A model generated the notes under the pieces. It did no database searches and was not told the DNA's origin. It saw only the letters and a list, made by a program, of their open reading frames with translations. A DNA stretch of 64,000 nucleotides from Escherichia phage AnYang, in the sequence record MK234886; one strand, written 5' to 3'. Below are positions 3,895 through 34,311 of the stretch, in pieces. The first letter of the stretch is position 1, and each line of letters begins with the position of its first letter. The translations under genes and the position numbers were made by a program.

Positions 3895-5469
3895 ATGGCA
3901 AACTTTAATACAATATTAAGTTTTCTTAAGCCATGGGCTAATGAAGACGAAAAAGAATATAAACAACAAATTAATAACAATTTAGAGTCTGTCACCGCAC
4001 CTAAGCTTGATGATGGCGCTCGCGAAATTGAGACGCAAGAGCAAAATATTCCTTATAATGCTCTTATGCAACAGATGTTTGGTAGTAATGAGCCTGAAGT
4101 TAAAAATACCAGGGAACTTATTGATACCTACCGTAATTTAATGAATAACTATGAAGTCGACAACGCCGTACAGGAAATTGTGTCTGACGCTATTGTCTAT
4201 GAGGATGATAAAGAAGTAGTTGCATTGAATTTAGACGGGACAGAATTTAGTCAAGCAATTAAAGATAAAATCTTGGCCGAATTCAGTGAAGTTTTAAACC
4301 TTTTAAATTTCCAACGTAAAGGCACCGACCATTTCCAACGCTGGTATGTAGACTCAAGAATTTTCTTTCATAAAATTATAAACCCTAAAAAAATGAAAGA
4401 GGGCGTACAAGAGCTTCGTCGCTTAGACCCACGCCAAGTCCAATATATTCGTGAAATCGTTACACGTATGGAAGACGGTGTTAAAATTGTAGACGGATAT
4501 CGTGAGTTTTTCGTTTACGACACAGGTCATGAAAGCTATTGCGCAGATGGACGCGTTTATTCAGCCGGGACTAAAGTTAAAATTCCTCGTGCTGCTGTGG
4601 TTTATGCCCATTCAGGATTATTAGATTGTTGTGGTAAAAACATCATTGGCTATTTGCAACGTGCTATTAAGCCTGCAAACCAGCTTAAATTGATGGAAGA
4701 CGCAATGGTCATTTACCGTATTACCCGTGCTCCTGACCGTCGGGTGTTTTATATCGATACAGGTAATATGCCTTCACGTAAGGCTGCAGCACAAATGCAA
4801 CATATCATGAACACGATGAAAAACCGTGTAGTATATGATGCTTCGACAGGTAAAATTAAAAACCAACAACACAATATGTCCATGACTGAAGACTATTGGT
4901 TGCAACGTCGTGACGGTAAAGCGGTTACAGAAGTTGATACAATGCCAGGTGCTACTGGTATGAGTGATATGGATGACGTTCTTTATTTCCGCACAGCACT
5001 TTATCGTGCGCTGCGTGTTCCTGAATCACGTATCCCTAGCGAGTCTAATTCTGGTGTTATGTTTGATGCCGGTACAGCAATCACTCGTGACGAATTAAAA
5101 TTCTCTAAATGGATTCGTCAACTACAAAACAAATTTGAAGAAATTTTCCTAGACCCGTTAAAAACCAACCTCATTCTTAAAAAGATTATTACAGAAGATG
5201 AGTGGGAAAAGGAAATAAATAATATTAAAGTTACGTTTAACCGTGATAGCTATTTCAGTGAAATGAAAGATGCTGAAATCATGGAACGCAGAATCAATAT
5301 GCTAACGATGGCTGAACCATTTATTGGTAAGTACATTTCACATCAAACGGCTATGAAAGATTTCCTCCAAATGACTGACGAAGAAATTAATCAAGAAGCT
5401 AAGCAAATTGAAGAAGAGTCTAAAGAGGCTCGTTTCCAAAACCCAGATGAAGAAGAAGAGGATTTCTAA
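3895..5469 (+). CDS. 20: Portal vertex protein gp20
   Basis: 524 aa, same length as T4 gp20; long identical stretches ([49 protein letters not shown]). Confidence 0.95.
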
Positions 5470-5735
5470 TGGAAGATTTAATCGAAGCTATTAAATCAAA
5501 CGACCTCGTAGCAGTTCGTAAAGCAGCAGCCCCGCTTATCGAATCTCGAGTAGCCGCTTTGATTGAAGCCCGTAAAGCAGAAATTGCTCGCTCCGTTATG
5601 ATTGAAGGCGAAGAAGCTGACGAAGATGACGAAGACGAAGATAAAGACGAAAAATCCGATAAAGCAGATAAGAAAGACAAAAAAGAATCTGACGATGCGG
5701 ATGAAGGTGATGATGACGACGAGGACGACGAATAA
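5469..5735 (+). CDS. 67: Prohead core protein gp67 with poly-acidic C-terminus
   Basis: [15 protein letters not shown]... followed by an Asp/Glu-rich tail, as in T4 gp67; overlaps the gp20 stop (ATGTAA-type coupling). Confidence 0.85.
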
Positions 5736-6163
5736 TGTTCCTTATCCCTGATGATTACGAATTAACTCTAGAAAGCGTAGAGGCCAAAATTCCAGAAGCA
5801 CAGGGACGTTTTGCTGCTCTTTCTGAAGCGCTCGAGAAAAGCGATATAAATAATCTTGTAGAGAACATGATTGCTGAAGGCGATATCGAATGTGCTATCG
5901 CTCTTGGTTCTTTAAATGAATCAATGGCTCTTAACGAATTTATCGTTAAACACGTTTCCTCTAAAGGTGTGCTTACTCGTACTAAAGATATTAAAACCCG
6001 TCAACGTAACGCATTCCAAACGACCGGGTTATCTAAAGCAAAGCGCCGTCAGATTGCTCGCAAAGCATCTAAAACCAAACGTGCTAATCCATCTACTCAA
6101 GTGCGTGCTGAACGTAAGCGTAAGAAAGCCCGTTCTAAACGTAAAGCTTTTGGACTTAACTAA
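5735..6163 (+). CDS. 68: Prohead core protein gp68
   Basis: [15 protein letters not shown]... matches T4 gp68; basic C-terminus; position between 67 and 21. Confidence 0.85.
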
Positions 6164-24158: not shown

Positions 24159-26282
24159 CTACATTTTGAATTTATTTGGTAGAGCAGAGATATCCAAAGA
24201 TGCCGCTAAGATTTCCATAGCCTCGTTGCTTTCAGAAACAGATTCACTAACCAAGAACTGTTTAAAGCCATCCATCGGACGAACTTCACCGGTTTCCATC
24301 AAATGGTCGCCATCGTAAACAGATTCACTGAGCTCTGAAGGAGACATCACTGTAGCTTCCATAAGGTATTTGTGAGATACCCTATCATTCATAGCAAAAG
24401 CCGCTACTTTATCGACCTTCATCAATAATCCGCGCGGAAGGATAATTTCTGCTTCTTCAGCGTATTCTGTAAGGTCACCTGGAGCGATAACTTTAACTGC
24501 TTCAGCACCTCGAATAACCATACCAATTTCAGCAATTCTATCCGCAGGGCCTTCAGGTGCAATTGGATTACCAAACTCGTCTTCTTCCCATTCTACCTCT
24601 TCGTCATCGACTTCACCCACATCAGATGAACTACCACTAGCCAATTTAAACAACTCATCAGCGGAGGATAAAGAACCTTCACCACCAACAAAAACGGCTT
24701 GGTTGTCGAGGGCCATATAATTTTTACCGAATTCACCAAAGATGTTAGGTTTTAGTGAGGCAGATACAAAGTTCTTAAAGTAAAATGTTTTGTTATCAAT
24801 ATTATGGCGCAGAATTTTGTATGGCAAATCCTGACCACGATACAAAATAGTACCCTTAGGAAGTTTAATACCCTTAGTAAATGCTGAGTCTAAATCCTTA
24901 ATCAATTTAATAGCCGTTGTATTGTTTTCGGATTCAGGTTTACCTAAAAGGAATAAGTTCATAGGAGCATATTCAGCAGCGCAATATTCAATAATAGCAT
25001 TGCTTTCATCTTTGGTTAGGTCCTTAGGTTTAATGAGCTCACCTGAATAAGCATATGCATCACTAATAGAATCGTTAATTAGTTTATAAACGGCTTCCAT
25101 AGCGAAAGCAATTCGGGATGCTTTCTCTGAAGGGGAGCCTTTAAAACGGGTACTCAGGTTATTAACAATTTTCTTAATAATATCCAGACTATTGGTTGTA
25201 TTGATTTGCGAAAGGCCGCTTAAAAGTCTATCGACTTCTGTATTAAAAAATGCCATATTTTTAGAGTAAATTTCAAACCCTTGTTTATCTCTATTAGCAT
25301 AATTTAGTTTAAATTTACTATCAGTCATTAAAGCGTGCGTGAGAGCAATGGTGTATCTAAAGTTGGCAAGGTCCTCGCTCTTAGATTTAAACTGAGAAGC
25401 CTGGCGCATTTTGGTAATAGCACCTTTTTTAAAGTTCTGACTAATCTGCTCAATACCTTCGTTCTCAGGGCCTTCGGCAGTGTGAACCGGCACAGAAGCT
25501 TCAAACTCATTATAAACCTGCAATTCTTTAGGGGACAAAGTTTCAGGCTCAGCAGTAGAATACTGTGCGGCTGCTGCCATACGACGGGAAATCTTAGTAC
25601 GAGTAATAACAGCCTTATCAGTACGTTTCTCTTCAACCTTAGCAATACTTGCCGAGACGGCTTCGACCTTACTTACAGACTGACCTGTTTTCTTGGATAC
25701 ATAAACTTCGCCGACTTTAGAATCGACTTTGGTATAAAGGTCAGCATCAATTTCGGGCATACCTTTGATATCTTCAATATTAGTACCACGACGTACTAAA
25801 AGAACGTAGGTATGTTTACCACTGAATTGGAACATATCATCGACAACTTTAAACTTACCACCGGTACGGGCCATCGCCAAACGTGCCAATACCCGCTGAA
25901 CAGTAGGGCCTTTACCTTTCATTTTCTTGGTAGGAAAACGGAATAAAACCGCATCCATTTTAAGTTTGTTTACTTGTTCGTATGCAGTATCAAAAATGGT
26001 ATTCAGCGTACCGAGTGGATCGGTACCCAAACCACCTTTGAGTTCTGCCGGAGCGCCTTTAGCAGACAAACTCATTAAGATGACATGGACGTACTTATCG
26101 CCTGGCTTAACCATTTTAATAGCATCGCCTTCAGACGCGTATGAAACCATACGCGCCACTAAATTGTCATTACCAGGAGCATGAACCGCAAAAATCTGCG
26201 GTATGCCCGAGCCAGGTTTAAGATTTGTTACTGGGTAATTTTTTTTATCACTTTTATCAAAAACTTCGTTTAAATTTTCCAT
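24159..26282 (-). CDS. alt: Alt-like ADP-ribosyltransferase, paralog 1 (most downstream)
   Basis: 707 aa; conserved Alt N-terminal region and C-terminal ART motifs (YRGQ, FYFKNFVSASL, EIILPRGLLMKVDKV); N-terminal ~240 aa nearly identical to paralog 2. Confidence 0.85.
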   Translation of the reverse strand: MENLNEVFDKSDKKNYPVTNLKPGSGIPQIFAVHAPGNDNLVARMVSYASEGDAIKMVKPGDKYVHVILMSLSAKGAPAELKGGLGTDPLGTLNTIFDTAYEQVNKLKMDAVLFRFPTKKMKGKGPTVQRVLARLAMARTGGKFKVVDDMFQFSGKHTYVLLVRRGTNIEDIKGMPEIDADLYTKVDSKVGEVYVSKKTGQSVSKVEAVSASIAKVEEKRTDKAVITRTKISRRMAAAAQYSTAEPETLSPKELQVYNEFEASVPVHTAEGPENEGIEQISQNFKKGAITKMRQASQFKSKSEDLANFRYTIALTHALMTDSKFKLNYANRDKQGFEIYSKNMAFFNTEVDRLLSGLSQINTTNSLDIIKKIVNNLSTRFKGSPSEKASRIAFAMEAVYKLINDSISDAYAYSGELIKPKDLTKDESNAIIEYCAAEYAPMNLFLLGKPESENNTTAIKLIKDLDSAFTKGIKLPKGTILYRGQDLPYKILRHNIDNKTFYFKNFVSASLKPNIFGEFGKNYMALDNQAVFVGGEGSLSSADELFKLASGSSSDVGEVDDEEVEWEEDEFGNPIAPEGPADRIAEIGMVIRGAEAVKVIAPGDLTEYAEEAEIILPRGLLMKVDKVAAFAMNDRVSHKYLMEATVMSPSELSESVYDGDHLMETGEVRPMDGFKQFLVSESVSESNEAMEILAASLDISALPNKFKM

Positions 26283-26285
26283 TAT

Positions 26286-28331
26286 TTACCCTTGGATGAA
26301 TTTTTCTGGGATTTCGTCAAAATTAATACATGAAGCTAAAATAGGCATTATATCCACTTTGGTCGATTTGACAAATGAATCAAAAGACACAGGGTTGTCG
26401 GTCTCTGTTTCTACACCTTGGTAAACAACCAATTCGCCTGTTTCCATCAATGCATCACCATCATAGATAACCGCATTTTCTGCTAGTTGGTCTGTGGTCT
26501 GGATATCTGCTTCCAATAATTTGGTGTTGTAGTTTCCTTTATATGAAGCATCAGTAATTTTAGTAATCTTAACTGTAGTTCCACGTGGAAGAATAACCTC
26601 TTGTTCTGTTGGAGAACCTGACAATTCACCAGGCATAATTACGTTAATAGAGTCTGCACCAGAAATTTTCCAGCCGATGTTCATCATTGTATTTTCGGAA
26701 CTCGTCAGCATACTTGGAAGAACAATTTCATTATCGCCTTGGAAAGATGTCCCAGCGCGATAGTCTTGATGTACTGCTGCCATTGCGACGTTTGATACCC
26801 AGCCGCCAAAGATAATCGGCTTAAGGGACGTTGATACATAGTTCCTGAAATAAAACAATTTTGAGTGCTTGATTTTATCAAAAGTGTTAACATTTAAATA
26901 TTGGCCACGCCAAAGTGTAATATCAGGTGGCAATTTATGACCAATTTCAAATGCCGCATCCATATCATTAATTACTTCAATTACACGCTGACTATCAATG
27001 AATTCTGCATCCTCTTCATAATAATTACCCAACAAATAATTATTAACATCGGTATAATATTGGCCGCAATAAGAAGAAATAGCCTCACGCTGCTCATACT
27101 CAAATCGATTATCGCTATAACCTGCTGTAAAATGCATAAGACTTTCTGATGCTTCATTAGCAAAGTCGGTAACAGCAGCACTTATACGTTGAGCATACTC
27201 TTGTTCCCAAAGCTCTGCTGCATATTCTGACGCATCCATATTAGGAGGGGCCTCATTCATTTTTCTTTCGATAAATGCAGCTTTGCGAAGGTTAAGAATC
27301 TCTGCACATGATTCGGCAAAAATCTGCATCTGCTTCATACTGCCGACAGGAGCACGTTTAAGTTCACGATGCATACGGTTAAAAATTGGGTCAGAGTCTT
27401 CGACTCGAATTTCTTCTTTCCAAACACCATTTGCTCGCATAGCCGTATCTGCCGCGCGCATACGGTCCATAGTATTCGTTTCAGAAGGTCGAACAAAAAT
27501 TTCCAGTTCTTCATAATCATCGATAAGTTCTGCCGTAGCCGGTCGACTAAACTTAGCAGCTTCTGCATCAATTTCGTCCCAACCTTCCGGAACTTCATCT
27601 CGAGGAGAATATTGGGCTGCGGCTACAGCACGCCTAGAAATCTTGGTAGTAGTAATGACAGCCTTATCAGTACGTTTTTCTTCGACTGCCGCTATACTAG
27701 CAGATAGTGCTTCTATTTTGGTTACTGATTGGCCTGTTTTCTTAGAAACATAAACCTCACCAACTTTAGAATCGACTTTAGTATAAAGGTCAGCATCAAT
27801 TTCGGGCATACCTTTTATGTCCTCAATATTAGCTTGTTTACGAACCAGTAAAACATATGTATGTTTGCCTGTAAATTGATACAGGCCATCAACAACTTTA
27901 AACTTACCGCCAGTACGAGCCATAGCCAAACGAGCTAATACGCGCTGAATAGTGGGACCCTTACCTTTCATTTTCTTAGTAGGGAAACGGAAAAGAACTG
28001 CATCCATTTTAAGTTTATTTACTTGTTCATATACCGTATCGAAAATGGTATTCAATGTACCAAGTGGGTCAGAACCTAACCCACCTTTCAACTCGGCTGG
28101 GGTACCCTTAGCAGACAAACTCATCAAAATAACATGAACATATTTGTCGCCCGGCTTAACCATTTTAATAGCGTCTCCTTGAGACGCATAAGATACCATA
28201 CGAGCGACCAAGTTATCATTACCTGGTGCTTGGATAGAGAAAATCTGTGGAATACCGGAACCTGGTTTAAGATTTATTACTGGATAGTTTTTAGCGGAAT
28301 CACTATCAAAAACTTCGTTTAAATTTTCCAT
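26286..28331 (-). CDS. alt: Alt-like ADP-ribosyltransferase, paralog 2
   Basis: 681 aa; Alt N-terminal region, divergent centre, ART motifs WRGQ, FYFRNYVSTSL, EVILPRG. Confidence 0.85.
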   Translation of the reverse strand: MENLNEVFDSDSAKNYPVINLKPGSGIPQIFSIQAPGNDNLVARMVSYASQGDAIKMVKPGDKYVHVILMSLSAKGTPAELKGGLGSDPLGTLNTIFDTVYEQVNKLKMDAVLFRFPTKKMKGKGPTIQRVLARLAMARTGGKFKVVDGLYQFTGKHTYVLLVRKQANIEDIKGMPEIDADLYTKVDSKVGEVYVSKKTGQSVTKIEALSASIAAVEEKRTDKAVITTTKISRRAVAAAQYSPRDEVPEGWDEIDAEAAKFSRPATAELIDDYEELEIFVRPSETNTMDRMRAADTAMRANGVWKEEIRVEDSDPIFNRMHRELKRAPVGSMKQMQIFAESCAEILNLRKAAFIERKMNEAPPNMDASEYAAELWEQEYAQRISAAVTDFANEASESLMHFTAGYSDNRFEYEQREAISSYCGQYYTDVNNYLLGNYYEEDAEFIDSQRVIEVINDMDAAFEIGHKLPPDITLWRGQYLNVNTFDKIKHSKLFYFRNYVSTSLKPIIFGGWVSNVAMAAVHQDYRAGTSFQGDNEIVLPSMLTSSENTMMNIGWKISGADSINVIMPGELSGSPTEQEVILPRGTTVKITKITDASYKGNYNTKLLEADIQTTDQLAENAVIYDGDALMETGELVVYQGVETETDNPVSFDSFVKSTKVDIMPILASCINFDEIPEKFIQG

Positions 28332-28334
28332 TAT

Positions 28335-30419
28335 TTACCCTTGGATGAATTTTTCTGGGATGTCATAGAGGTCTATGCATGAAGCCAAAAGAGACAGCAC
28401 ATCAACCCGTGTAGATTTAACAAATGAATCAAAAGATACGGGGCTTTCGGAAGTATCGAAATCATCTTGATATACGACCAACTCGCCGGTTTCCATTAGT
28501 ACGTCACCATCATACACCACAGATTCTTGAAGCTCATCTGTTGTCATAACTTCAGCTTGGATGAGTTTTGTATTATTAGATGTTCTTCCATCATTATTAG
28601 ACGCATCTGTTATTTTATTAACTTTGACCATTAATCCACGCGGTAGAATAACTTCAGCTTCAGTTGCTATTCCGAGATTTCCTGGATATACAACATTAAC
28701 TTTATGAGCCCCATCAATCGCCCATCCTATTTGAACTTTAACGTAATCAGGATTTTCTTTATATGCTCTTATTTCATTAGGATTAATAGTTATTCCTTCT
28801 TCATTTTTATCGACCGTCAATTCATTACGAACTTCCGGTTCTAAAAGACCGATACCGGCGTGCGTAACACCAAAACGACCAAAAATGATAGGAGTTAAAG
28901 AAGTAGATACAAAATTTCTGAAATAGAACACTTTATTTTTAACTAGTGCTTCGTATATAGGAGCAGTCATACTCTGTGCACGATAAACTGTGATGCCTTC
29001 TGGTATACGGTCGCCATTTTCGAAAGCAGAATCCAAATTATTAACTGCAGATTCGATATCTTTTTCACTCATAATCTCATAGTTCTGAGGATTGTAACGA
29101 CCTAAAAGAAGGTTATTTATATCGCCGTATCCAGAGCCACAATATTCTCTGATGCCACGCTTTTGTGATGGGGTGTATTTAGAACCCTCACGAGCAATAG
29201 TAATATCAATCATTGAACCACCACCCACACCAGCAAAACTATACACGCGTTTTTTAATGAATTTGGTCTTGGATGCTTTCCACTTGGACTCGGTCAATTC
29301 ATTCCAGAGGTCGTCAGGTTGGCCTTTACGAGTTTTGTTATGCGTAGCCAACCATTCGCCTTTGTATTCTTCGAAAACGGTATTAATAGCAGAGGCATAT
29401 TTTTCTAGAGCTTTAACAGATGTCAAAGGTTCGTTTTTGATGGCTGATAGGATTTTCTCTTTAATTTTCTCTTTGATTTCACCTATACCGTGAAGAGGAA
29501 ACATTTTATAATCGTAATGCAATTCTTCAGCAGTGCCTTCAGCTACTATATTAGCAACCTTATTTTTAGCCGCAGGAGAATTGTTATTAGTAACCATTTC
29601 CTGGGCCTCAGGGATTAATGGAGCTGTTGCAGGTTTATTAAAATCTACGGCATTTGCTTCATATTTCTTAAACAGTTCACTTTCATTACGATAAGATTCT
29701 AACGATTGACTTGCTGCAATGGCACGACGAGAAATCTTAGTCTTGGTTATAACCATTTTATCAGTGCGACGTTCTTCAACTTTAGCAATACTGCCGGCAA
29801 TAGCAGTTTCTTTAGTAACCTGCACACCTTCTTTTTTAGAAATATAAACTTCACCGACATCAGAATCTACCTTAGTATATAATTCAGCATTAATTCCTGG
29901 CATACCTTTGATATCTTCGATATCGGCCTGTTTACGAACTACTAGGATATAAGTATGCTTGCCTGTAAATTGGTACATAGCTGGAATTACTTTGAAGCGC
30001 CCACCAGTTTTTTGAGTTACTAAACGTTGGATAATTCTCTGGACAATAGGGCCTTGTCCTTTCATTTTCTTGGTAGGAAAACGGAACATCACGGCATCCA
30101 TACGAAGCTTTTTAACTTGTTCGAATACTGCGTCGAAAATGGTATTAATAGCATCAATAGGAGTGGGACCAAGGCCACCCTTAAGTTCGGCTGGAGTACC
30201 TTTAGCTGATAAACTCATCAAAATAACGTGGGCATATTTATCACCCAATTTAACTTGTTTAATGGCGTCGCCTTCAGAGGCATAGGATACCATACGAGCA
30301 ACCAATTGGGATTCTGCGTCGCCTATCTTCCAAATCTGGGGTACTTTAAGTTTAGGGTTCAAGTTTACTGTAGGCAGTGTGCCTTCGGACTCAAACACTT
30401 CATTTAATTGTTCGGTCAT
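28335..30419 (-). CDS. alt: Alt ADP-ribosyltransferase, paralog 3 (closest to T4 Alt)
   Basis: 694 aa; extensive identity to T4 Alt (682 aa) incl. ISRRAIAASQSLES, TPSQKRGIREYCGSGY, FYFRNFVSTSL, EVILPRGLMVKVNKITDAS. Confidence 0.92.
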   Translation of the reverse strand: MTEQLNEVFESEGTLPTVNLNPKLKVPQIWKIGDAESQLVARMVSYASEGDAIKQVKLGDKYAHVILMSLSAKGTPAELKGGLGPTPIDAINTIFDAVFEQVKKLRMDAVMFRFPTKKMKGQGPIVQRIIQRLVTQKTGGRFKVIPAMYQFTGKHTYILVVRKQADIEDIKGMPGINAELYTKVDSDVGEVYISKKEGVQVTKETAIAGSIAKVEERRTDKMVITKTKISRRAIAASQSLESYRNESELFKKYEANAVDFNKPATAPLIPEAQEMVTNNNSPAAKNKVANIVAEGTAEELHYDYKMFPLHGIGEIKEKIKEKILSAIKNEPLTSVKALEKYASAINTVFEEYKGEWLATHNKTRKGQPDDLWNELTESKWKASKTKFIKKRVYSFAGVGGGSMIDITIAREGSKYTPSQKRGIREYCGSGYGDINNLLLGRYNPQNYEIMSEKDIESAVNNLDSAFENGDRIPEGITVYRAQSMTAPIYEALVKNKVFYFRNFVSTSLTPIIFGRFGVTHAGIGLLEPEVRNELTVDKNEEGITINPNEIRAYKENPDYVKVQIGWAIDGAHKVNVVYPGNLGIATEAEVILPRGLMVKVNKITDASNNDGRTSNNTKLIQAEVMTTDELQESVVYDGDVLMETGELVVYQDDFDTSESPVSFDSFVKSTRVDVLSLLASCIDLYDIPEKFIQG

Positions 30420-30473: not shown

Positions 30474-30698
30474 TTAAAGTACTAACAGCGTACGGTATAC
30501 TTCAAATTTAGGACCCTTTTCATAGCGGTCAAAATTATCTTTAAAATCGGCGAACGCGATTTCATTTTCAAATTCAAGGACAATTTGGGACACTGCAGTG
30601 GAGACATCGCCACCTTCTTTATATCCAATAACCACGGTTTCTAAATAAGCTTTCATATTATAGTCCAGTTTGAGACCAATCACCGAATACATCTTCAA
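30474..30698 (-). CDS. Hypothetical small protein between ligase and alt
   Basis: ORF overlapping the ligase 3' end; a start at MKAYLE (30656) would be coupled to the ligase stop; no recognised domain. Confidence 0.4.
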   Translation of the reverse strand: MKMYSVIGLKLDYNMKAYLETVVIGYKEGGDVSTAVSQIVLEFENEIAFADFKDNFDRYEKGPKFEVYRTLLVL

Positions 30699-32181
30699 AT
30701 GTATCAGCTTCTGTTTTATCGAAACGCCAACCTTTAATGATTGGAAGGAAAATACCTACAGTATCAGTACGTCCTTTAGAATGAACCCAACCATTACATT
30801 CACAGTCAGCAATACGTCCAATCAACTTACCTTCACGAGCTTGTTTCATAAGAAGTTCACGGTCTAAATCAGGACGGTCTTCCAATGGAATCAATACCTT
30901 TTTACCTGATTTATCTTTCTTATGGGTAGTATCTTTAAAGCCTGAACCACAGTCACTTGTAATTCGACGACAACGCGATACCAATTCAACACCACCAAGT
31001 TTGTTAGGGTCCTTCGAGTGTTCATAATAACCTACCACTTCTAAAGCAATATCGATTACTTCTTTGAACTTGATAAGATTCTTAGAACGGCGGTTTTCCC
31101 AGTAGGAGTCCATGTTCTTAAGGATAATGCCTTCCAAACCTTGGTCGACATATTTCTTATAAACGACTTTAGCTTCTTCAAGATTATTAACCCACTGGTT
31201 TTCGATAGCTTCAACACGCGTTGTACCATGCAATACGACATTATGAGCAACCATAAGTTCTAAGGCAGTAAAGCGTACATCGTACTTATCGCCTTTAATT
31301 TTACCTTCGGAATATACGACATCTAATGGGACATAATCCCATGCCTGCAATACCATACCTGCTGCTTCGGTTGAAGTAATAGTTCCTTGAAGAGCTTTGT
31401 TAGCCAAGCCATTTGAAGTGGAACGATCGGCTACGGTTTGGAATTCCTTAGCTTTACTTAATTCAGGAAGTTCCTCATCAAACATACTAAACAAATCATT
31501 AGATGCTTTAGGTTCTACTTTAGGAGTATGGTAAACTAATTCGCCGTCAATCATAACACCATTAGGATGGCGTTGTCGAGCTTCTTCGGTCATAGCCATT
31601 AATTCGGCAGCCAAAAGATTAAGCCCTTGATATTCGTTACCACCACGAGTAAGGAATGTCACACCATCATTACGAACTTCAGCAAAACAACGAGCACCGT
31701 CAGCTTTTAATTGAGCAAACGCAGGCCATTTAATATTTTTCTTAATCAAATCTTCATCATAAGAACTAGCCAACATCTGTGGTTGTTCAGGGATTAAACC
31801 TTTCCAAACCTTGTTAGCAATAGAAATCGATGCACCGCATTCAAGGTCACGCATCATTACACGACGTAATACCTCCGCATCCGGGGCCTTAGCATCGGCA
31901 ATGATTTGAGCCAGTTCTTCAATAGCTGCATTACCCGTAATCTTACGAGTGGCTAATGTGAATTCAGCGAAATCAAGAAGGTCTTCAAGAGTAATCATAC
32001 CAAAGGATTGAGACGTAAATCCAGGTTCTGGCCACTTTTTAATACCGTAGTTCAAACGACGAGTATAAGCCATATGATATACACGTTTCAGAAGCTCGTT
32101 ATCCTTTTCACGAGCAATAATAGCTTCTTTAGCTTTAGTAGAATCAATAGCAGCAATTTCGTTTAAAATATCTAAAATCAT
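30658..32181 (-). CDS. 30: ATP-dependent DNA ligase gp30
   Basis: ILDILNEIAAIDSTK...NIKWPAFAQLKADGARCFAEVR (adenylation lysine motif KADG)...GLEGIILKN...ECNGW matches T4 DNA ligase; start set at MILDIL (RBS GAGGTG), the ORF opens at 32220. Confidence 0.93.
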   Translation of the reverse strand: MILDILNEIAAIDSTKAKEAIIAREKDNELLKRVYHMAYTRRLNYGIKKWPEPGFTSQSFGMITLEDLLDFAEFTLATRKITGNAAIEELAQIIADAKAPDAEVLRRVMMRDLECGASISIANKVWKGLIPEQPQMLASSYDEDLIKKNIKWPAFAQLKADGARCFAEVRNDGVTFLTRGGNEYQGLNLLAAELMAMTEEARQRHPNGVMIDGELVYHTPKVEPKASNDLFSMFDEELPELSKAKEFQTVADRSTSNGLANKALQGTITSTEAAGMVLQAWDYVPLDVVYSEGKIKGDKYDVRFTALELMVAHNVVLHGTTRVEAIENQWVNNLEEAKVVYKKYVDQGLEGIILKNMDSYWENRRSKNLIKFKEVIDIALEVVGYYEHSKDPNKLGGVELVSRCRRITSDCGSGFKDTTHKKDKSGKKVLIPLEDRPDLDRELLMKQAREGKLIGRIADCECNGWVHSKGRTDTVGIFLPIIKGWRFDKTEADTFEDVFGDWSQTGL

Positions 32182-32191
32182 AATCACCTCA

Positions 32192-32470
32192 TTAGTCATG
32201 GATTCTATTATAAGCCACATCAGCCAAAAGCAAGTCTAATCGCTTATGATAAGAGAACACAAATCTCATTCGCCCGTCGGATTTGAACTTGGACATAAAG
32301 TGGACATAAATGAATCCCTGTTCGACGCATTCACGCCAAACAGGATGGTCTTTAGCCGGATTTACATCAAATGAGTAATTATGATTCACATGACGAATAA
32401 ACTGGTTTACATGACCATAATCCATTGTAGTGGTAGGACCATAGTCTGAAATTGTATGAACTACAAACAT
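32192..32470 (-). CDS. Hypothetical protein (92 aa)
   Basis: ORF with GAGGT RBS, start overlaps the stop of the upstream HAD-like gene; His-rich; in the T4 30.x region. Confidence 0.5.
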   Translation of the reverse strand: MFVVHTISDYGPTTTMDYGHVNQFIRHVNHNYSFDVNPAKDHPVWRECVEQGFIYVHFMSKFKSDGRMRFVFSYHKRLDLLLADVAYNRIHD

Positions 32471-32471
32471 A

Positions 32472-33110
32472 TTAACCTCGAGCAATCCATTCAACTGCGG
32501 CATTATTACGAAGGGATTCAATTGCTGCGATATCGTCCCATGAATTAACCTTTACGGCCAAATTAGGTTTAAAGTCGCGTTCACCACGAGCTAACCAATA
32601 AACTTGGATATCCATGAGAACATTAGATGCGGCATCACAGTGGTGAGCCAAATCATCAACATAAAACTTAATACGTTTACCGTACGTATTTTTAGCTCTT
32701 ATGAAGAGGTCTTCTTTTGATTCTGAATGACCGCACATCAGAATCTCCTTGAATGCGCCAGGGAACAAAGCATTCAAATTGAATTGTCTATTCAGCAGAG
32801 CATCAATTGAGTCGCCTAGCGCAGTCACGGCTACAAAATCGAAGTCTTTTTTGAGCTTGTTGATATGTTTTAATGCGTCCATGTAAGGAGACAGATAACG
32901 AATAAAATCCGACTGATTATATTTCTCGATTAAACGAGCGCCCAATTCATTATCGCAATTAAACAGCTCGCCTGGAGATAAGAAACGTTCGTCCTGAATC
33001 ATATTCAAAATATGTTCTAAAGGCAAATTATATTTCTGTGCGAAATAAGGCAAGCCGGACTGCCAACTTAAACATACTCCATCGATATCTGTTAAGATAA
33101 CTGGTTTCAT
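32472..33110 (-). CDS. HAD-superfamily hydrolase-like protein (putative nucleotidase/phosphatase)
   Basis: N-terminal ILTDIDGV motif (HAD motif I, DxDG) and a later acidic motif FYVDDLAHH; family assignment is by motif only. Confidence 0.5.
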   Translation of the reverse strand: MKPVILTDIDGVCLSWQSGLPYFAQKYNLPLEHILNMIQDERFLSPGELFNCDNELGARLIEKYNQSDFIRYLSPYMDALKHINKLKKDFDFVAVTALGDSIDALLNRQFNLNALFPGAFKEILMCGHSESKEDLFIRAKNTYGKRIKFYVDDLAHHCDAASNVLMDIQVYWLARGERDFKPNLAVKVNSWDDIAAIESLRNNAAVEWIARG

Positions 33111-33559
33111 AATAAATCTCTCAATTTGTTTAGGATGTCGATAAACTCTTTTTCAGTTAGTATTGTATCACATTCTGTAAGGTGGCTTGCCATCGAATGC
33201 TTTAAAACTTTACCTTTAGTGGATTGTAACGCATCGCGGAATCCTTTGTTCTGGAGCGCTGCTTCAAAATACGCACTTTCGTAAAGCTCTTTCCACGCTG
33301 TGGAGTATCTTGAAAACGGAGTTCCAAGCCAGAACAACGTGCCACGGTCCTGAGCCCTAGCATAAGCTCGTCCAGCTTTTTGCGCGTCCAACCCAGACAT
33401 CTCAAATATACGTCTTTGCTGTTCAACATTTTTCACCTTACACCCTTGGAGGAATCCTTCGAGTCCACCAAATTGGATACCGTCCATAACGAAAGGCCAT
33501 TTGGCAAAGTTACTTAATGCACATGATGGCCATGGGAAGTTGCTTCTGATTTCAATCAT
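33107..33559 (-). CDS. NADAR (YbiA-like, DUF1768) domain protein, putative ADP-ribose-processing hydrolase
   Basis: SNFAKWPFVMDGIQFGGLEGFLQGCKV resembles the conserved SNFxxWP...DG...E...Q..K core of E. coli YbiA; about 150 aa, the size of a NADAR domain. Confidence 0.5.
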   Translation of the reverse strand: MIEIRSNFPWPSCALSNFAKWPFVMDGIQFGGLEGFLQGCKVKNVEQQRRIFEMSGLDAQKAGRAYARAQDRGTLFWLGTPFSRYSTAWKELYESAYFEAALQNKGFRDALQSTKGKVLKHSMASHLTECDTILTEKEFIDILNKLRDLL

Positions 33560-33750
33560 AGTCTTTTAAGGCTTTTGATAACTTCTAATTCAGACCCAAT
33601 ACGAACATCTTCAGTTCCATCGACCCATAGGACGGTGTAGGCTTCTTTAATAGTAACATTACCTAATTTAAAAGCAGGTAGAACCTTGGAAATCATACCA
33701 GGAATACCTATACCCTTTAATTGGACTGTTTGCGATAAGAATAGTTGCAT
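33556..33750 (-). CDS. Hypothetical small protein (64 aa)
   Basis: ORF in operon-like overlap with flanking genes; no recognised domain. Confidence 0.4.
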   Translation of the reverse strand: MQLFLSQTVQLKGIGIPGMISKVLPAFKLGNVTIKEAYTVLWVDGTEDVRIGSELEVIKSLKRL

Positions 33751-34037
33751 TAGAACCTCATCTGAAAGCCGTGCGATTTAACATTGCCACCATAGATGTC
33801 AGAGGTATTGACTTCACGTGCAGCGCTTGGGTCGATATTGATGTCGTGGTTGAGCTTAGTGATTGCTAGGGTATCACGACCATTAACAGTACGGAATTCT
33901 ACAGGGCATACAACATCGGCATAAGCCTTAATAGATTCACGAGTAGGTTGTTTGTCGGCAGGAACGTCTTTACCTGCTTTAGAGAAAACAACTTCACAGA
34001 AATTTTTACGAGTATCGAAATAAGTGGTCATAAACAT
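33750..34037 (-). CDS. Hypothetical protein (about 95 aa)
   Basis: Start set at MFMTTYF (RBS GAGG); the ORF opens with GTG at 34097 inside the predicted promoter. Confidence 0.5.
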   Translation of the reverse strand: MFMTTYFDTRKNFCEVVFSKAGKDVPADKQPTRESIKAYADVVCPVEFRTVNGRDTLAITKLNHDINIDPSAAREVNTSDIYGGNVKSHGFQMRF

Positions 34038-34055
34038 AATATTTTCCTCATCATT

Positions 34056-34097
34056 AGTTGATAAATCTATAGTATCATGCCTACCGGAGATGTACAC
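34056..34097 (-). promoter_or_regulatory. T4-type early promoter for the 33750-34037 gene
   Basis: Minus strand: GTGTACA, spacer, TGaTACTATAG, followed by TATCAACTAATGATGAGG and the ATG. Confidence 0.5.
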
Positions 34098-34112
34098 CCT
34101 TTTTTTAAAGAT

Positions 34113-34145
34113 TTAGAAACAAAAATGGGACTCCGAAGAGTCCCA
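34113..34145 (-). terminator. Rho-independent terminator after the small basic protein gene
   Basis: TGGGACTC-ttcg-GAGTCCCA hairpin followed by TTTTTGTTT on the minus strand, 5 nt after the stop. Confidence 0.7.
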
Positions 34146-34149
34146 TAAC

Positions 34150-34311
34150 TTATGCCTGAGGCTTACCAAAGCAAGCAGCATCTGCACGCAATACCGCACG
34201 AGCACGAGCTTGAAGCTTATCAACTACCTGATCGATACGCTTGTTGGACGCACGCTTGTAACCAGCGCGTTTAGAGGTACCGTCAACTACTTTAACTTCT
34301 TTCTTAGCCAT
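34150..34311 (-). CDS. Small basic protein (53 aa), unknown function
   Basis: ORF MAKKEVKVVDGTSKRAGYKRASNKRIDQVVDKLQARARAVLRADAACFGKPQA; codons typical of highly expressed genes; own terminator; below the ORF-track size cut-off. Confidence 0.45.
   Translation of the reverse strand: MAKKEVKVVDGTSKRAGYKRASNKRIDQVVDKLQARARAVLRADAACFGKPQA

What the first reader, a model, noticed from the sequence alone, without database searches (positions are those of the whole stretch)
32472..33559. NADAR-like hydrolase and HAD-like hydrolase pair next to the ADP-ribosyltransferase array
The 150-aa ORF at 33107-33559 has the YbiA/NADAR-type core (SNFAKWPFVMDGIQFGGLEGFLQGCKV); NADAR proteins process ADP-ribose-linked substrates and some reverse ADP-ribosylation of nucleic-acid bases. 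The adjacent ORF carries the HAD motif I (ILTDIDGV). A putative ADP-ribose hydrolase and a phosphatase about 3 kb upstream of three injected ARTs suggests a linked module, either counter-defence against host DNA/RNA ADP-ribosylating toxins or regulation of the phage's own ARTs.
Basis: inference. Interest (0 to 1): 0.65.

Follow-up and report, generated by a model that had tools for sequence, protein, structure and literature searches.

The report
T4-type AdfN NADAR and HAD phosphatase
The two genes are the T4 gene 30.3 and 30.2 counterparts in a T4-like coliphage: the first is the already published AdfN enzyme, which strips ADP-ribose off phage DNA to defeat the bacterial DarTG1 defence, and the second is an uncharacterised HAD-type phosphatase that travels with the DNA ligase gene, so the finding is correct but largely ordinary.

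Summary
Both ORFs exist as described, on the minus strand of a Dhakavirus-type (IME08/JS98-like) T4 relative.

**The 150-aa ORF** is the ortholog of T4 gp30.3.
- It matches Pfam Phage_30_3 at 3e-65 and is 85% identical to the T4 protein.
- Its profile matches E. coli YbiA (hhalign 95.8%).
- Its AlphaFold model (pLDDT 95.5) hits only the three solved NADAR structures.
- The catalytic Glu34, Lys41 and phage-type His121, and the C-terminal helix, are all intact.
- T4 gp30.3 is published as AdfN, a guanine-ADP-ribose DNA glycohydrolase that defeats DarTG1 (Nat Commun 2025; Toxins 2024).

**The 212-aa ORF** is gp30.2.
- It is a C1-capped HAD phosphatase with all four motifs conserved. Its substrate is unknown and it is weakly NT5C-like.

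**The "linked module" reading is not supported.**
- 68 of 72 gp30.2 loci sit beside DNA ligase, but only 33 sit near a NADAR.
- Only 25 of 80 NADAR loci have the HAD nearby.
- In five genomes the two genes lie 54-64 kb apart.
- The nearness to the Alt genes is inherited T4 gene order.

One open point remains. AdfN is reported to need an unidentified T-even factor in vivo, and gp30.2 is a low-probability candidate.

The parts
33107..33559 (-). Gene 30.3 ortholog (adfN): 150-aa NADAR-family DNA ADP-ribosylglycohydrolase. Catalytic Glu34 and Lys41 in the LEGFLQGCK motif, phage-type His121 in the last strand, and an intact C-terminal helix (136-149).
   Evidence: PF08010 at 3e-65. 85% identity to T4 gp30.3. 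E34 and H121 invariant and K41 at least 90% conserved in a 75-sequence alignment. hhalign to E. coli YbiA 95.8%, E=7.7e-9. AF2 pLDDT 95.5. Foldseek top hits 2b3w, 8bau and 8bat only.
32472..33110 (-). Gene 30.2 ortholog: 212-aa HAD-superfamily phosphatase with a C1 helical cap. Motif I D8-x-D10-G-V, motif II T96, motif III K132, motif IV D152-D153.
32192..32470 (-). Context: gene 30.1 ortholog (DUF3045). The likely start is the ATG at 32470, 1 nt after the 30.2 stop.
   Evidence: PF11243 at 6.1e-16, with the match starting at residue 18 of the listed ORF. Sequence read.
30658..32220 (-). Context: ATP-dependent DNA ligase (gp30). This is the gene with which gp30.2 is consistently adjacent across Straboviridae.
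   Evidence: PF01068 at 1.3e-23. Ligase lies next to the gp30.2 homologue in 68 of 72 viral loci.
24159..30419 (-). Context: three tandem Alt-type ADP-ribosyltransferase paralogs (30419..28335, 28331..26286, 26282..24159), transcriptionally downstream of the pair.
   Evidence: PF03496 at 6.5e-36, 2e-21 and 7.8e-18. ORFs listed. T4 has the same order with one alt gene.

Best explanation
The window comes from a Dhakavirus-type T4-like coliphage, and the two ORFs are the orthologs of T4 genes 30.3 and 30.2.

gp30.3 is AdfN, a stand-alone NADAR enzyme. By homology to the tested T4 protein, it hydrolyses the N-glycosidic bond between ADP-ribose and guanine in phage DNA that the host toxin DarT1 has modified. 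This releases ADP-ribose, restores the base and lets replication proceed in DarTG1-carrying hosts. Glu34 and Lys41 (T4 Glu36 and Lys43) are the residues whose mutation abolishes activity in T4. His121 takes the place of the Glu or Asp found in other NADARs.

gp30.2 is an independent Mg2+-dependent HAD phosphomonoesterase. Asp8 is the nucleophile and Asp10 the acid/base. Thr96 and Lys132 bind the phosphate, and Asp152/Asp153 bind the metal. Its closing helical cap points to a small phosphorylated substrate, most probably a (deoxy)nucleoside monophosphate, and so to a role in nucleotide or DNA metabolism alongside DNA ligase.

Shown here: homology, fold, conserved catalytic residues and gene-order statistics. 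Taken from the literature: the activity and anti-DarTG1 role of the T4 ortholog. Inferred: that this copy has the same activity, and the substrate class of gp30.2.
For: Phage identity: about 97% nucleotide identity to phage IME08, with the same gene names.

gp30.3:
- PF08010 at 3e-65.
- 85% identical to T4 gp30.3, with E34, K41 and H121 aligned to T4 E36, K43 and H123 and a full C-terminus.
- These residues are conserved in 75 homologues.
- The family profile hits only YbiA among PDB sequences (E=0.0026).
- hhalign to YbiA gives 95.8% probability, E=7.7e-9.
- Several relatives carry both PF08010 and PF08719.
- The AF2 model has pLDDT 95.5. Its only significant PDB neighbours are YbiA 2b3w, Phytophthora NADAR 8bau and Geobacter NADAR 8bat.

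Literature on the T4 ortholog:
- T4 gp30.3 (AdfN) is necessary and sufficient for DarTG1 resistance.
- E36A and K43A abolish its activity.
- The purified protein removes ADP-ribose from DNA.
- The RB69 allele, truncated by 15 residues, is defective (PMC11825919).
- T4 gp30.3 hydrolyses guanosine-ADPr but not thymidine-ADPr in vitro (PMC11125620).

gp30.2:
- All four HAD motifs are conserved.
- HAD fold with a C1 cap.
- Weak but recurrent NT5C matches.
- Next to the ligase gene in 68/72 loci.
- Intact in RB69, and in phages whose 30.3 is truncated.
Against: - No assay exists for this particular protein. It is 15% diverged from the T4 enzyme, and its first residues differ because gene 30.4 is missing upstream.
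- AdfN-T4 does not rescue DarT1 toxicity in uninfected E. coli and only weakly rescues T5 and Bas25, so the in vivo mechanism is incomplete.
- For gp30.2, no Pfam or NCBIfam model reaches its cut-off.
- The gp30.2 family profile finds nothing among PDB sequences.
- Structural neighbours of gp30.2 are spread over many HAD subfamilies with no single nearest one, so the nucleotidase assignment is weak.
Confidence: 0.85

Rival explanations
1. NADAR and HAD form a two-enzyme functional unit. gp30.2 is either the unidentified T-even factor that AdfN needs for full activity in cells, or it processes a phosphorylated product of de-ADP-ribosylation.
For: - The 30.3 stop and the 30.2 start overlap in an ATGA, here and in T4.
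- The order NADAR - HAD - ligase recurs in distant T4-like lineages where the proteins are only 41-51% identical to those of the window.
- PMC11825919 states that AdfN-T4 probably needs an additional T-even-encoded protein.
- RB69, in which ectopic AdfN works fully, carries gp30.2.
Against: - Only 25/80 NADAR loci have the HAD within 4 kb, and only 33/72 HAD loci have a NADAR.
- In five complete T4-like genomes the two genes are 54-64 kb apart. In Klebsiella phage Roth16 the NADAR sits in the tRNA cluster.
- gp30.2 stays intact where 30.3 is truncated or frameshifted.
- Purified AdfN works alone in vitro.
- Any of some 100-200 T-even-specific proteins would fit the RB69 versus T5 result equally well.
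Confidence: 0.06
2. The NADAR moderates or reverses ADP-ribosylation made by the phage's own three Alt transferases.
For: The genes lie 2-3 kb apart on the same strand. PMC9503650 notes that T4-like NADARs are expressed early along with ARTs.
Against: - The order alt - 30 - 30.1 - 30.2 - 30.3 is inherited T4 synteny.
- Most NADAR loci have no alt within 4 kb.
- The T4 record describes Alt as a mono-ADP-ribosyltransferase targeting host RNA polymerase, whereas the tested NADAR substrate is guanine-ADPr in DNA.
- The AdfN deletion phenotype in T4 is explained by DarTG1 alone.
Confidence: 0.03
3. gp30.2 is a DNA-end phosphatase that prepares nicks for the adjacent DNA ligase, like the HAD phosphatase domain of T4 polynucleotide kinase, rather than a small-molecule nucleotidase.
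Against: - The model has a roughly 70-residue helical C1 cap between motifs I and II. In HAD enzymes this typically encloses small substrates (established knowledge of the family).
- Cap residues W16, S18, Y64, N65, S67, Y76 and D78 are invariant, as expected for a defined small-ligand pocket.
Confidence: 0.1
4. The NADAR acts mainly on soluble ADP-ribose derivatives or riboflavin-pathway intermediates, like YbiA, rather than on DNA.
For: Closest PDB neighbour by Foldseek is YbiA. There is a weak TIGR02464 match at E=0.035. PMC9503650 predicted soluble ADPr substrates for phage NADARs.
Against: Direct experiments on the 85%-identical T4 protein show DNA de-ADP-ribosylation and an anti-DarTG1 phenotype that depends on the catalytic residues. 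The strand residue is the phage-type His, not the YbiA-type Glu.
Confidence: 0.04

Closest known systems
T4 gp30.3 = AdfN (anti-DarT factor NADAR), Pfam PF08010 Phage_30_3
   Same: 85% identical, with the same length class (150 vs 152 aa). Same catalytic Glu, Lys and His and the same C-terminal helix. Same position upstream of 30.2 - 30.1 - ligase - alt.
   Different: The N-terminal residues differ (MIEIRS vs MSELEIRS), because gene 30.4 is absent and 30.3 abuts the 30.5 homologue. This copy has not been assayed.
DarG1-type (BC4488 family) NADAR antitoxins of DarT1-NADAR operons, e.g. Geobacter lovleyi NADAR 8bat
   Same: Same fold (Foldseek prob 0.98, TMq 0.62). Same Glu/Lys catalytic pair. 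Same reaction on guanine-ADPr according to the literature.
   Different: It has no N-terminal extension and no adjacent DarT toxin. It has His instead of Asp in the last strand. The T4 ortholog cannot replace DarG1 in uninfected cells.
E. coli YbiA (N-glycosidase, 2b3w), Pfam PF08719 NADAR
   Same: Best structural match (E=1.9e-4, TMq 0.69). Profile homology at 95.8%. The SNFA...E..Q..K core aligns.
   Different: About 18-23% identity. YbiA has Glu in the last strand. The window protein alone gives no PF08719 hit. The physiological roles differ.
T4 gp30.2 (hypothetical protein, 278 aa), phrog_420
   Same: 72-74% identical over the HAD domain. Same position between 30.3 and 30.1.
   Different: The window protein is 212 aa and lacks the roughly 65-residue C-terminal tail of T4 gp30.2. 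No function is published for either protein, and a search for 'gp30.2' found no paper.
5'(3')-deoxyribonucleotidases cdN/mdN and bacterial NT5C-like proteins (Pfam PF06941; 2jao, 4mum, 6g2n, 3bwv)
   Different: All sequence matches fall below the Pfam cut-off (13.4 bits against 24.8). Other HAD-IA enzymes score just as well structurally. The substrate is untested.

Membership tests
NADAR superfamily (YbiA fold) | [quoted passage not shown] | tested here: met
   AF2 model with pLDDT 95.5 and helices and strand pairs as expected. The only PDB matches with probability of 0.98 or more are 2b3w, 8bau and 8bat.
NADAR superfamily (YbiA fold) | Sequence homology to NADAR/DUF1768 (PF08719) | tested here: met
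   hhalign of the family profile against E. coli YbiA gives 95.8%, E=7.7e-9. The profile against PDB sequences hits only YbiA. Relatives carry both PF08010 and PF08719. The single sequence alone gives no PF08719 hit.
NADAR superfamily (YbiA fold) | Catalytic Glu and Lys of the E-x-x-x-Q-x-x-K motif | tested here: met
   E34 is invariant and K41 at least 90% conserved in 75 sequences. They align to T4 E36 and K43 and to YbiA SEHYFQAQK.
Phage gp30.3/AdfN clade of NADARs | Histidine in place of Glu or Asp in the last strand | tested here: met
   H121, in the sequence LKHS, is invariant in 75 sequences. The feature is defined in PMC11125620.
Phage gp30.3/AdfN clade of NADARs | Intact C-terminal helix (its loss inactivates the RB69 allele) | tested here: met
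   The full-length C-terminus TILTEKEFIDILNKLRDLL forms helix 136-149 at pLDDT 95-97. The requirement comes from PMC11825919.
Phage gp30.3/AdfN clade of NADARs | Guanine-ADP-ribose DNA glycohydrolase activity and anti-DarTG1 phenotype | not testable with these tools
   Shown for the T4 ortholog only (PMC11825919, PMC11125620).
DarT-NADAR toxin-antitoxin system | NADAR encoded next to a DarT1 toxin gene | tested here: not met
   The neighbours are the 30.5 homologue and gp30.2, with no DarT. This is an orphan antitoxin-like gene, as described in PMC11825919.
HAD superfamily phosphatases | Motif I DxDx(T/V) with a nucleophile Asp and an Asp+2 acid/base | tested here: met
   D8-I-D10-G-V, with D8, D10 and G11 invariant in 62 sequences.
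HAD superfamily phosphatases | Motif II Ser/Thr, motif III Lys/Arg and motif IV acidic pair | tested here: met
   T96 is at least 90% conserved (Ser in one member). K132, D152 and D153 are invariant.
HAD superfamily phosphatases | Rossmann-like HAD core fold | tested here: met
HAD superfamily phosphatases | Curated family model above threshold (Pfam/NCBIfam) | tested here: not met
   Best Pfam hit is NT5C at 13.4 bits against a cut-off of 24.8. There is no NCBIfam hit. The clade has no curated model.
NT5C 5'(3')-deoxyribonucleotidase family (PF06941) | Family-level sequence match and nucleotidase substrate pocket | tested here: inconclusive
   Hits are below threshold in 17/62 members, the best at E=0.0029. 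The structural match is no better than to other HAD-IA enzymes. The substrate cannot be tested here.

The most novel reading that the evidence does not exclude
gp30.2, whose start codon overlaps the adfN stop codon in T-even phages, is the unidentified T-even-encoded factor that AdfN needs for full activity inside cells. That factor is an open question stated in PMC11825919. If this were true, the NADAR and HAD genes would form a true two-component anti-DarT unit in the phages where they are adjacent.
Probability: 0.05. Interest if true: 0.55.

Novelty: already known. Interest (0 to 1): 0.15.

Why it matters
The NADAR gene is a known enzymatic anti-defence factor. Finding an intact copy mainly predicts that this phage resists DarTG1-type DNA ADP-ribosylation, which is useful for annotation and host-range prediction but is not new biology.

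Two points carry modest value:
- gp30.2 is a widespread phage-restricted HAD phosphatase clade. It occurs in 1446 phage records, and a search for 'gp30.2' in the paper library found no paper. It is tied to the DNA ligase gene, so it deserves a substrate screen.
- The published requirement of AdfN for an unknown T-even co-factor is still open. Its immediate downstream neighbour is a cheap candidate to test.

Tried and rejected
- **Single-sequence phmmer against PDB sequences** gave only chance-level hits for both proteins.
- **The gp30.2 family profile against PDB sequences** found nothing.
- **NCBIfam** gave no usable hit for either protein, nor for distant gp30.2 relatives.
- **Fusion proteins as function clues.** Pfam scans of long or fused gp30.2 relatives (P0300, P0342, P0245, P0289, P0109) showed no informative second domain.
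- **Cluster look-up** of distant gp30.2 relatives returned unnamed metagenomic or phage proteins.
- **Contexts of the few gp30.2 homologues without a ligase** (L149, L154) showed unrelated neighbours (PD-(D/E)XK nuclease, patatin, clamp-loader ATPase) and gave no functional hint.
- **A NADAR-looking ORF in L152** (LSNFAYSPFKH) near ligase and HAD was not confirmed by the family profile or by Pfam, and was dropped.
- **Genome-level co-occurrence** of 30.2 and 30.3 is uninformative. Both occur in about 1450-1500 T4-like records with the same host distribution.
- **Literature search for gp30.2** found nothing.
- **The promoter scan** was no better than shuffles (13 found against 15.8 expected), so no promoter is claimed.

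Full report
**Observation.** The two ORFs are present exactly where stated, both on the minus strand: 33559..33107 (150 aa) and 33110..32472 (212 aa). The quoted peptide strings are there. The genes are tightly packed. The upstream 64-aa ORF and 30.3 share an ATGA, 30.3 and 30.2 share an ATGA, and the probable 30.1 start follows the 30.2 stop by one base. Three Alt-type ADP-ribosyltransferase paralogs lie in tandem at 30419..24159 on the same strand. They are transcriptionally downstream of the pair, separated from it by 30.1, DNA ligase and an alt.1 homologue.

**Origin of the window.** The region is about 97% identical to Escherichia phage IME08 and 95% to Bp7, WG01, QL01 and related phages. 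IME08 is classified in Straboviridae, Tevenvirinae, Dhakavirus, and its record names the genes 30.2 and 30.3. Phage T4 has the same order: alt, alt.1, 30, 30.1, 30.2, 30.3, 30.3', 30.4 and onward.

**The 150-aa protein.**
- It matches Pfam PF08010 (Phage_30_3) at 3e-65 over its whole length.
- It is 85% identical to T4 gp30.3.
- A word-indexed search with a family alignment found 2604 relatives. Several carry both PF08010 and PF08719 (NADAR), or are named YbiA/DUF1768 by JGI.
- An 8-sequence family profile hits one sequence in the whole PDB, E. coli YbiA. The alignment covers the SNFA...E..Q..K core (E=0.0026).
- Profile comparison of the 75-sequence alignment with YbiA gives 95.8% probability, E=7.7e-9.
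- The AlphaFold2 model is confident (pLDDT 95.5, pTM 0.90).
- Its only meaningful PDB neighbours are the three solved NADAR structures: YbiA 2b3w, Phytophthora NADAR 8bau and Geobacter lovleyi NADAR 8bat. All other hits have probability of 0.02 or less.
- Glu34 and His121 are invariant and Lys41 is at least 90% conserved across 75 homologues. They align with T4 Glu36, Lys43 and His123.
- The C-terminal helix is complete.

**What is already published.** T4 gene 30.3 was renamed adfN.
- It is necessary and sufficient for resistance of T-even phages to the DarTG1 toxin-antitoxin defence.
- E36A and K43A abolish its function.
- The purified protein removes ADP-ribose from DarT1-modified DNA.
- RB69 is sensitive because a frameshift removes the last 15 residues (PMC11825919).
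- An independent study showed that the T4 protein hydrolyses guanosine-ADPr but not thymidine-ADPr. It described the phage clade as having His where other NADARs have Glu or Asp (PMC11125620).
- The presence of NADARs in T4-like phages, expressed early together with ARTs, was noted in 2022 (PMC9503650).

The window copy passes every sequence and structure criterion of the AdfN clade. Only its activity is untested.

**The 212-aa protein.**
- It is the gp30.2 ortholog: phrog_420 at 1.5e-70, and 72-74% identical to T4 gp30.2 over the HAD domain.
- T4 gp30.2 is 278 aa. The window protein lacks its C-terminal tail.
- In 62 homologues, D8, D10, G11, K132, D152 and D153 are invariant and T96 is nearly so. 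Together these make a complete set of HAD motifs I-IV of the phosphatase (DxD) type.
- The model (pLDDT 92.5) has a Rossmann-like core with a helical insertion between motifs I and II, which is a C1 cap.
- There is no unique nearest subfamily. 5'(3')-deoxyribonucleotidase-like proteins are among the best and most completely aligned matches (3bwv, 2jao, 4mum, 6g2n).
- 17 of 62 family members give sub-threshold NT5C hits.
- No curated Pfam or NCBIfam model covers the clade.
- An exhaustive profile search finds 1201 cluster representatives, mostly unnamed phage or metagenome proteins.
- A search for 'gp30.2' in the paper library found nothing.

I conclude that it is an active, capped HAD phosphomonoesterase, probably acting on a nucleotide. 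The substrate class is an inference.

**Is it a linked module?**
- I fetched 80 viral loci seeded on the NADAR and 72 seeded on the HAD. I scored neighbours by tblastn and by profile HMMs.
- Only 25 of 80 NADAR loci have a gp30.2 homologue within 4 kb.
- 33 of 72 HAD loci have a NADAR.
- 68 of 72 HAD loci have the DNA ligase gene next door.
- In five complete T4-like genomes both genes are present but 54-64 kb apart (contig ranges).
- In Klebsiella phage Roth16 the NADAR sits inside the tRNA cluster.
- gp30.2 is intact in RB69 and in phages whose 30.3 is truncated or frameshifted.
- Most NADAR loci have no alt gene nearby.

The adjacency in this window is therefore inherited T-even gene order. 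The HAD gene's stable partner is the ligase, and there is no comparative support for an obligate NADAR-HAD-ART unit. The order NADAR - HAD - ligase does recur in some distant lineages, such as Acinetobacter- and Cronobacter-type phages, so it may be ancestral. It has nonetheless been broken repeatedly without loss of either gene.

**Residual open point.** The published work reports three things:
- AdfN-T4 does not neutralise DarT1 in uninfected E. coli.
- It only weakly rescues T5 and Bas25.
- Unmodified T4 DNA does not change this.

The authors conclude that an additional T-even protein is probably needed. gp30.2 overlaps adfN by an ATGA and is a cheap candidate, but nothing here singles it out from the many T-even-specific proteins. 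I give this 5%.

**Verdict.** The NADAR part is already known, the HAD part is a routine member of a known superfamily with an unknown substrate, and the proposed module is not supported. Interest is low.

Noticed in passing
window 33202-33429 (-), inside gene 30.3: A 75-aa ORF in the +1 frame of 30.3 corresponds to T4 gene 30.3', which the T4 record annotates as an internal translation in a different frame. Judging from two frameshifted relatives, Pfam PF11097 seems to correspond to this frame. The frame stays open for about 76 codons in 14 of 15 close T-even relatives. It is not consistently open in homologues at 38-46% identity: the mean longest open stretch is about 51 codons, against about 42 in the other frame.
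   Followed up: partly
window 33556-34150 compared with L001 (IME08) 4559-6116: Relative to IME08, the window lacks about 1.07 kb, corresponding to genes 30.4, 30.7 and 30.8. The order here is 30.9, 30.6 homologue (34097..33750), 30.5 homologue (33750..33556), then 30.3. The 30.3 start sits at the 30.4 deletion junction, which explains its altered N-terminus (MIEIRS against MSELEIRS).
   Followed up: partly
relatives of window 33107-33559: P0013-P0018, P0021, P0022; L015/L084: Many natural isolates carry truncated, frameshifted or chimeric 30.3 genes, among them phages NR1, UGJNEcP4, SV76, RPN226 and vB_EcoM_005. Two of these switch between the 30.3 and 30.3' frames. In UGJNEcP4 and vB_EcoM_005, where it was checked, gp30.2 stays intact (99-100% identical). 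This suggests recurrent loss of AdfN like the published RB69 case, although some could be gene-calling artefacts.
   Followed up: partly
L083-L154 (gp30.2-seeded loci): The gp30.2 HAD gene lies next to the ATP-dependent DNA ligase gene in 68 of 72 viral loci, even where 30.1 and the NADAR are absent. This is a far more stable pairing than NADAR with HAD. It may hint at a role for gp30.2 in DNA or nucleotide metabolism.
   Followed up: partly
window 24159-30419 (-): There are three full-length tandem Alt paralogs (707, 681 and 694 aa). Their N-terminal regions of about 230 residues are highly similar, and their central and C-terminal regions diverge. T4 has one alt gene plus the remnants alt.-1 and alt.-2 of an old duplication.
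   Followed up: no
L155 3501-3950 (Klebsiella phage Roth16, PQ657790.1): The gp30.3/NADAR homologue of this phage lies inside the tRNA gene cluster and is annotated as 'anti-CBASS protein acb1'. That label looks like a mis-annotation, because the protein matches the NADAR query over 99% of its length.
   Followed up: no
window 34125-34146 (-): A strong terminator-like hairpin lies between the 30.9 homologue and the 30.6 homologue: 9 base pairs with a GC-rich stem, followed by TTTTTGTTT. It may mark the start of the transcription unit that contains 30.6 - 30.5 - 30.3 - 30.2 - 30.1.
   Followed up: no
gp30.2 homologues, alignment A2: gp30.2 homologues fall into a short class (about 200-220 aa, as here) and a long class (260-340 aa, as in T4). 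The long class has poorly conserved C-terminal tails of unknown role.
   Followed up: no
literature, PMC11125620 methods: The Toxins 2024 paper lists its T4 gp30.3 construct as residues 1-208, whereas the annotated T4 gp30.3 is 152 aa. Some metagenomic homologues are 214-236 aa, so the construct may not be the T4 reference protein, or it may include tag residues.
   Followed up: no
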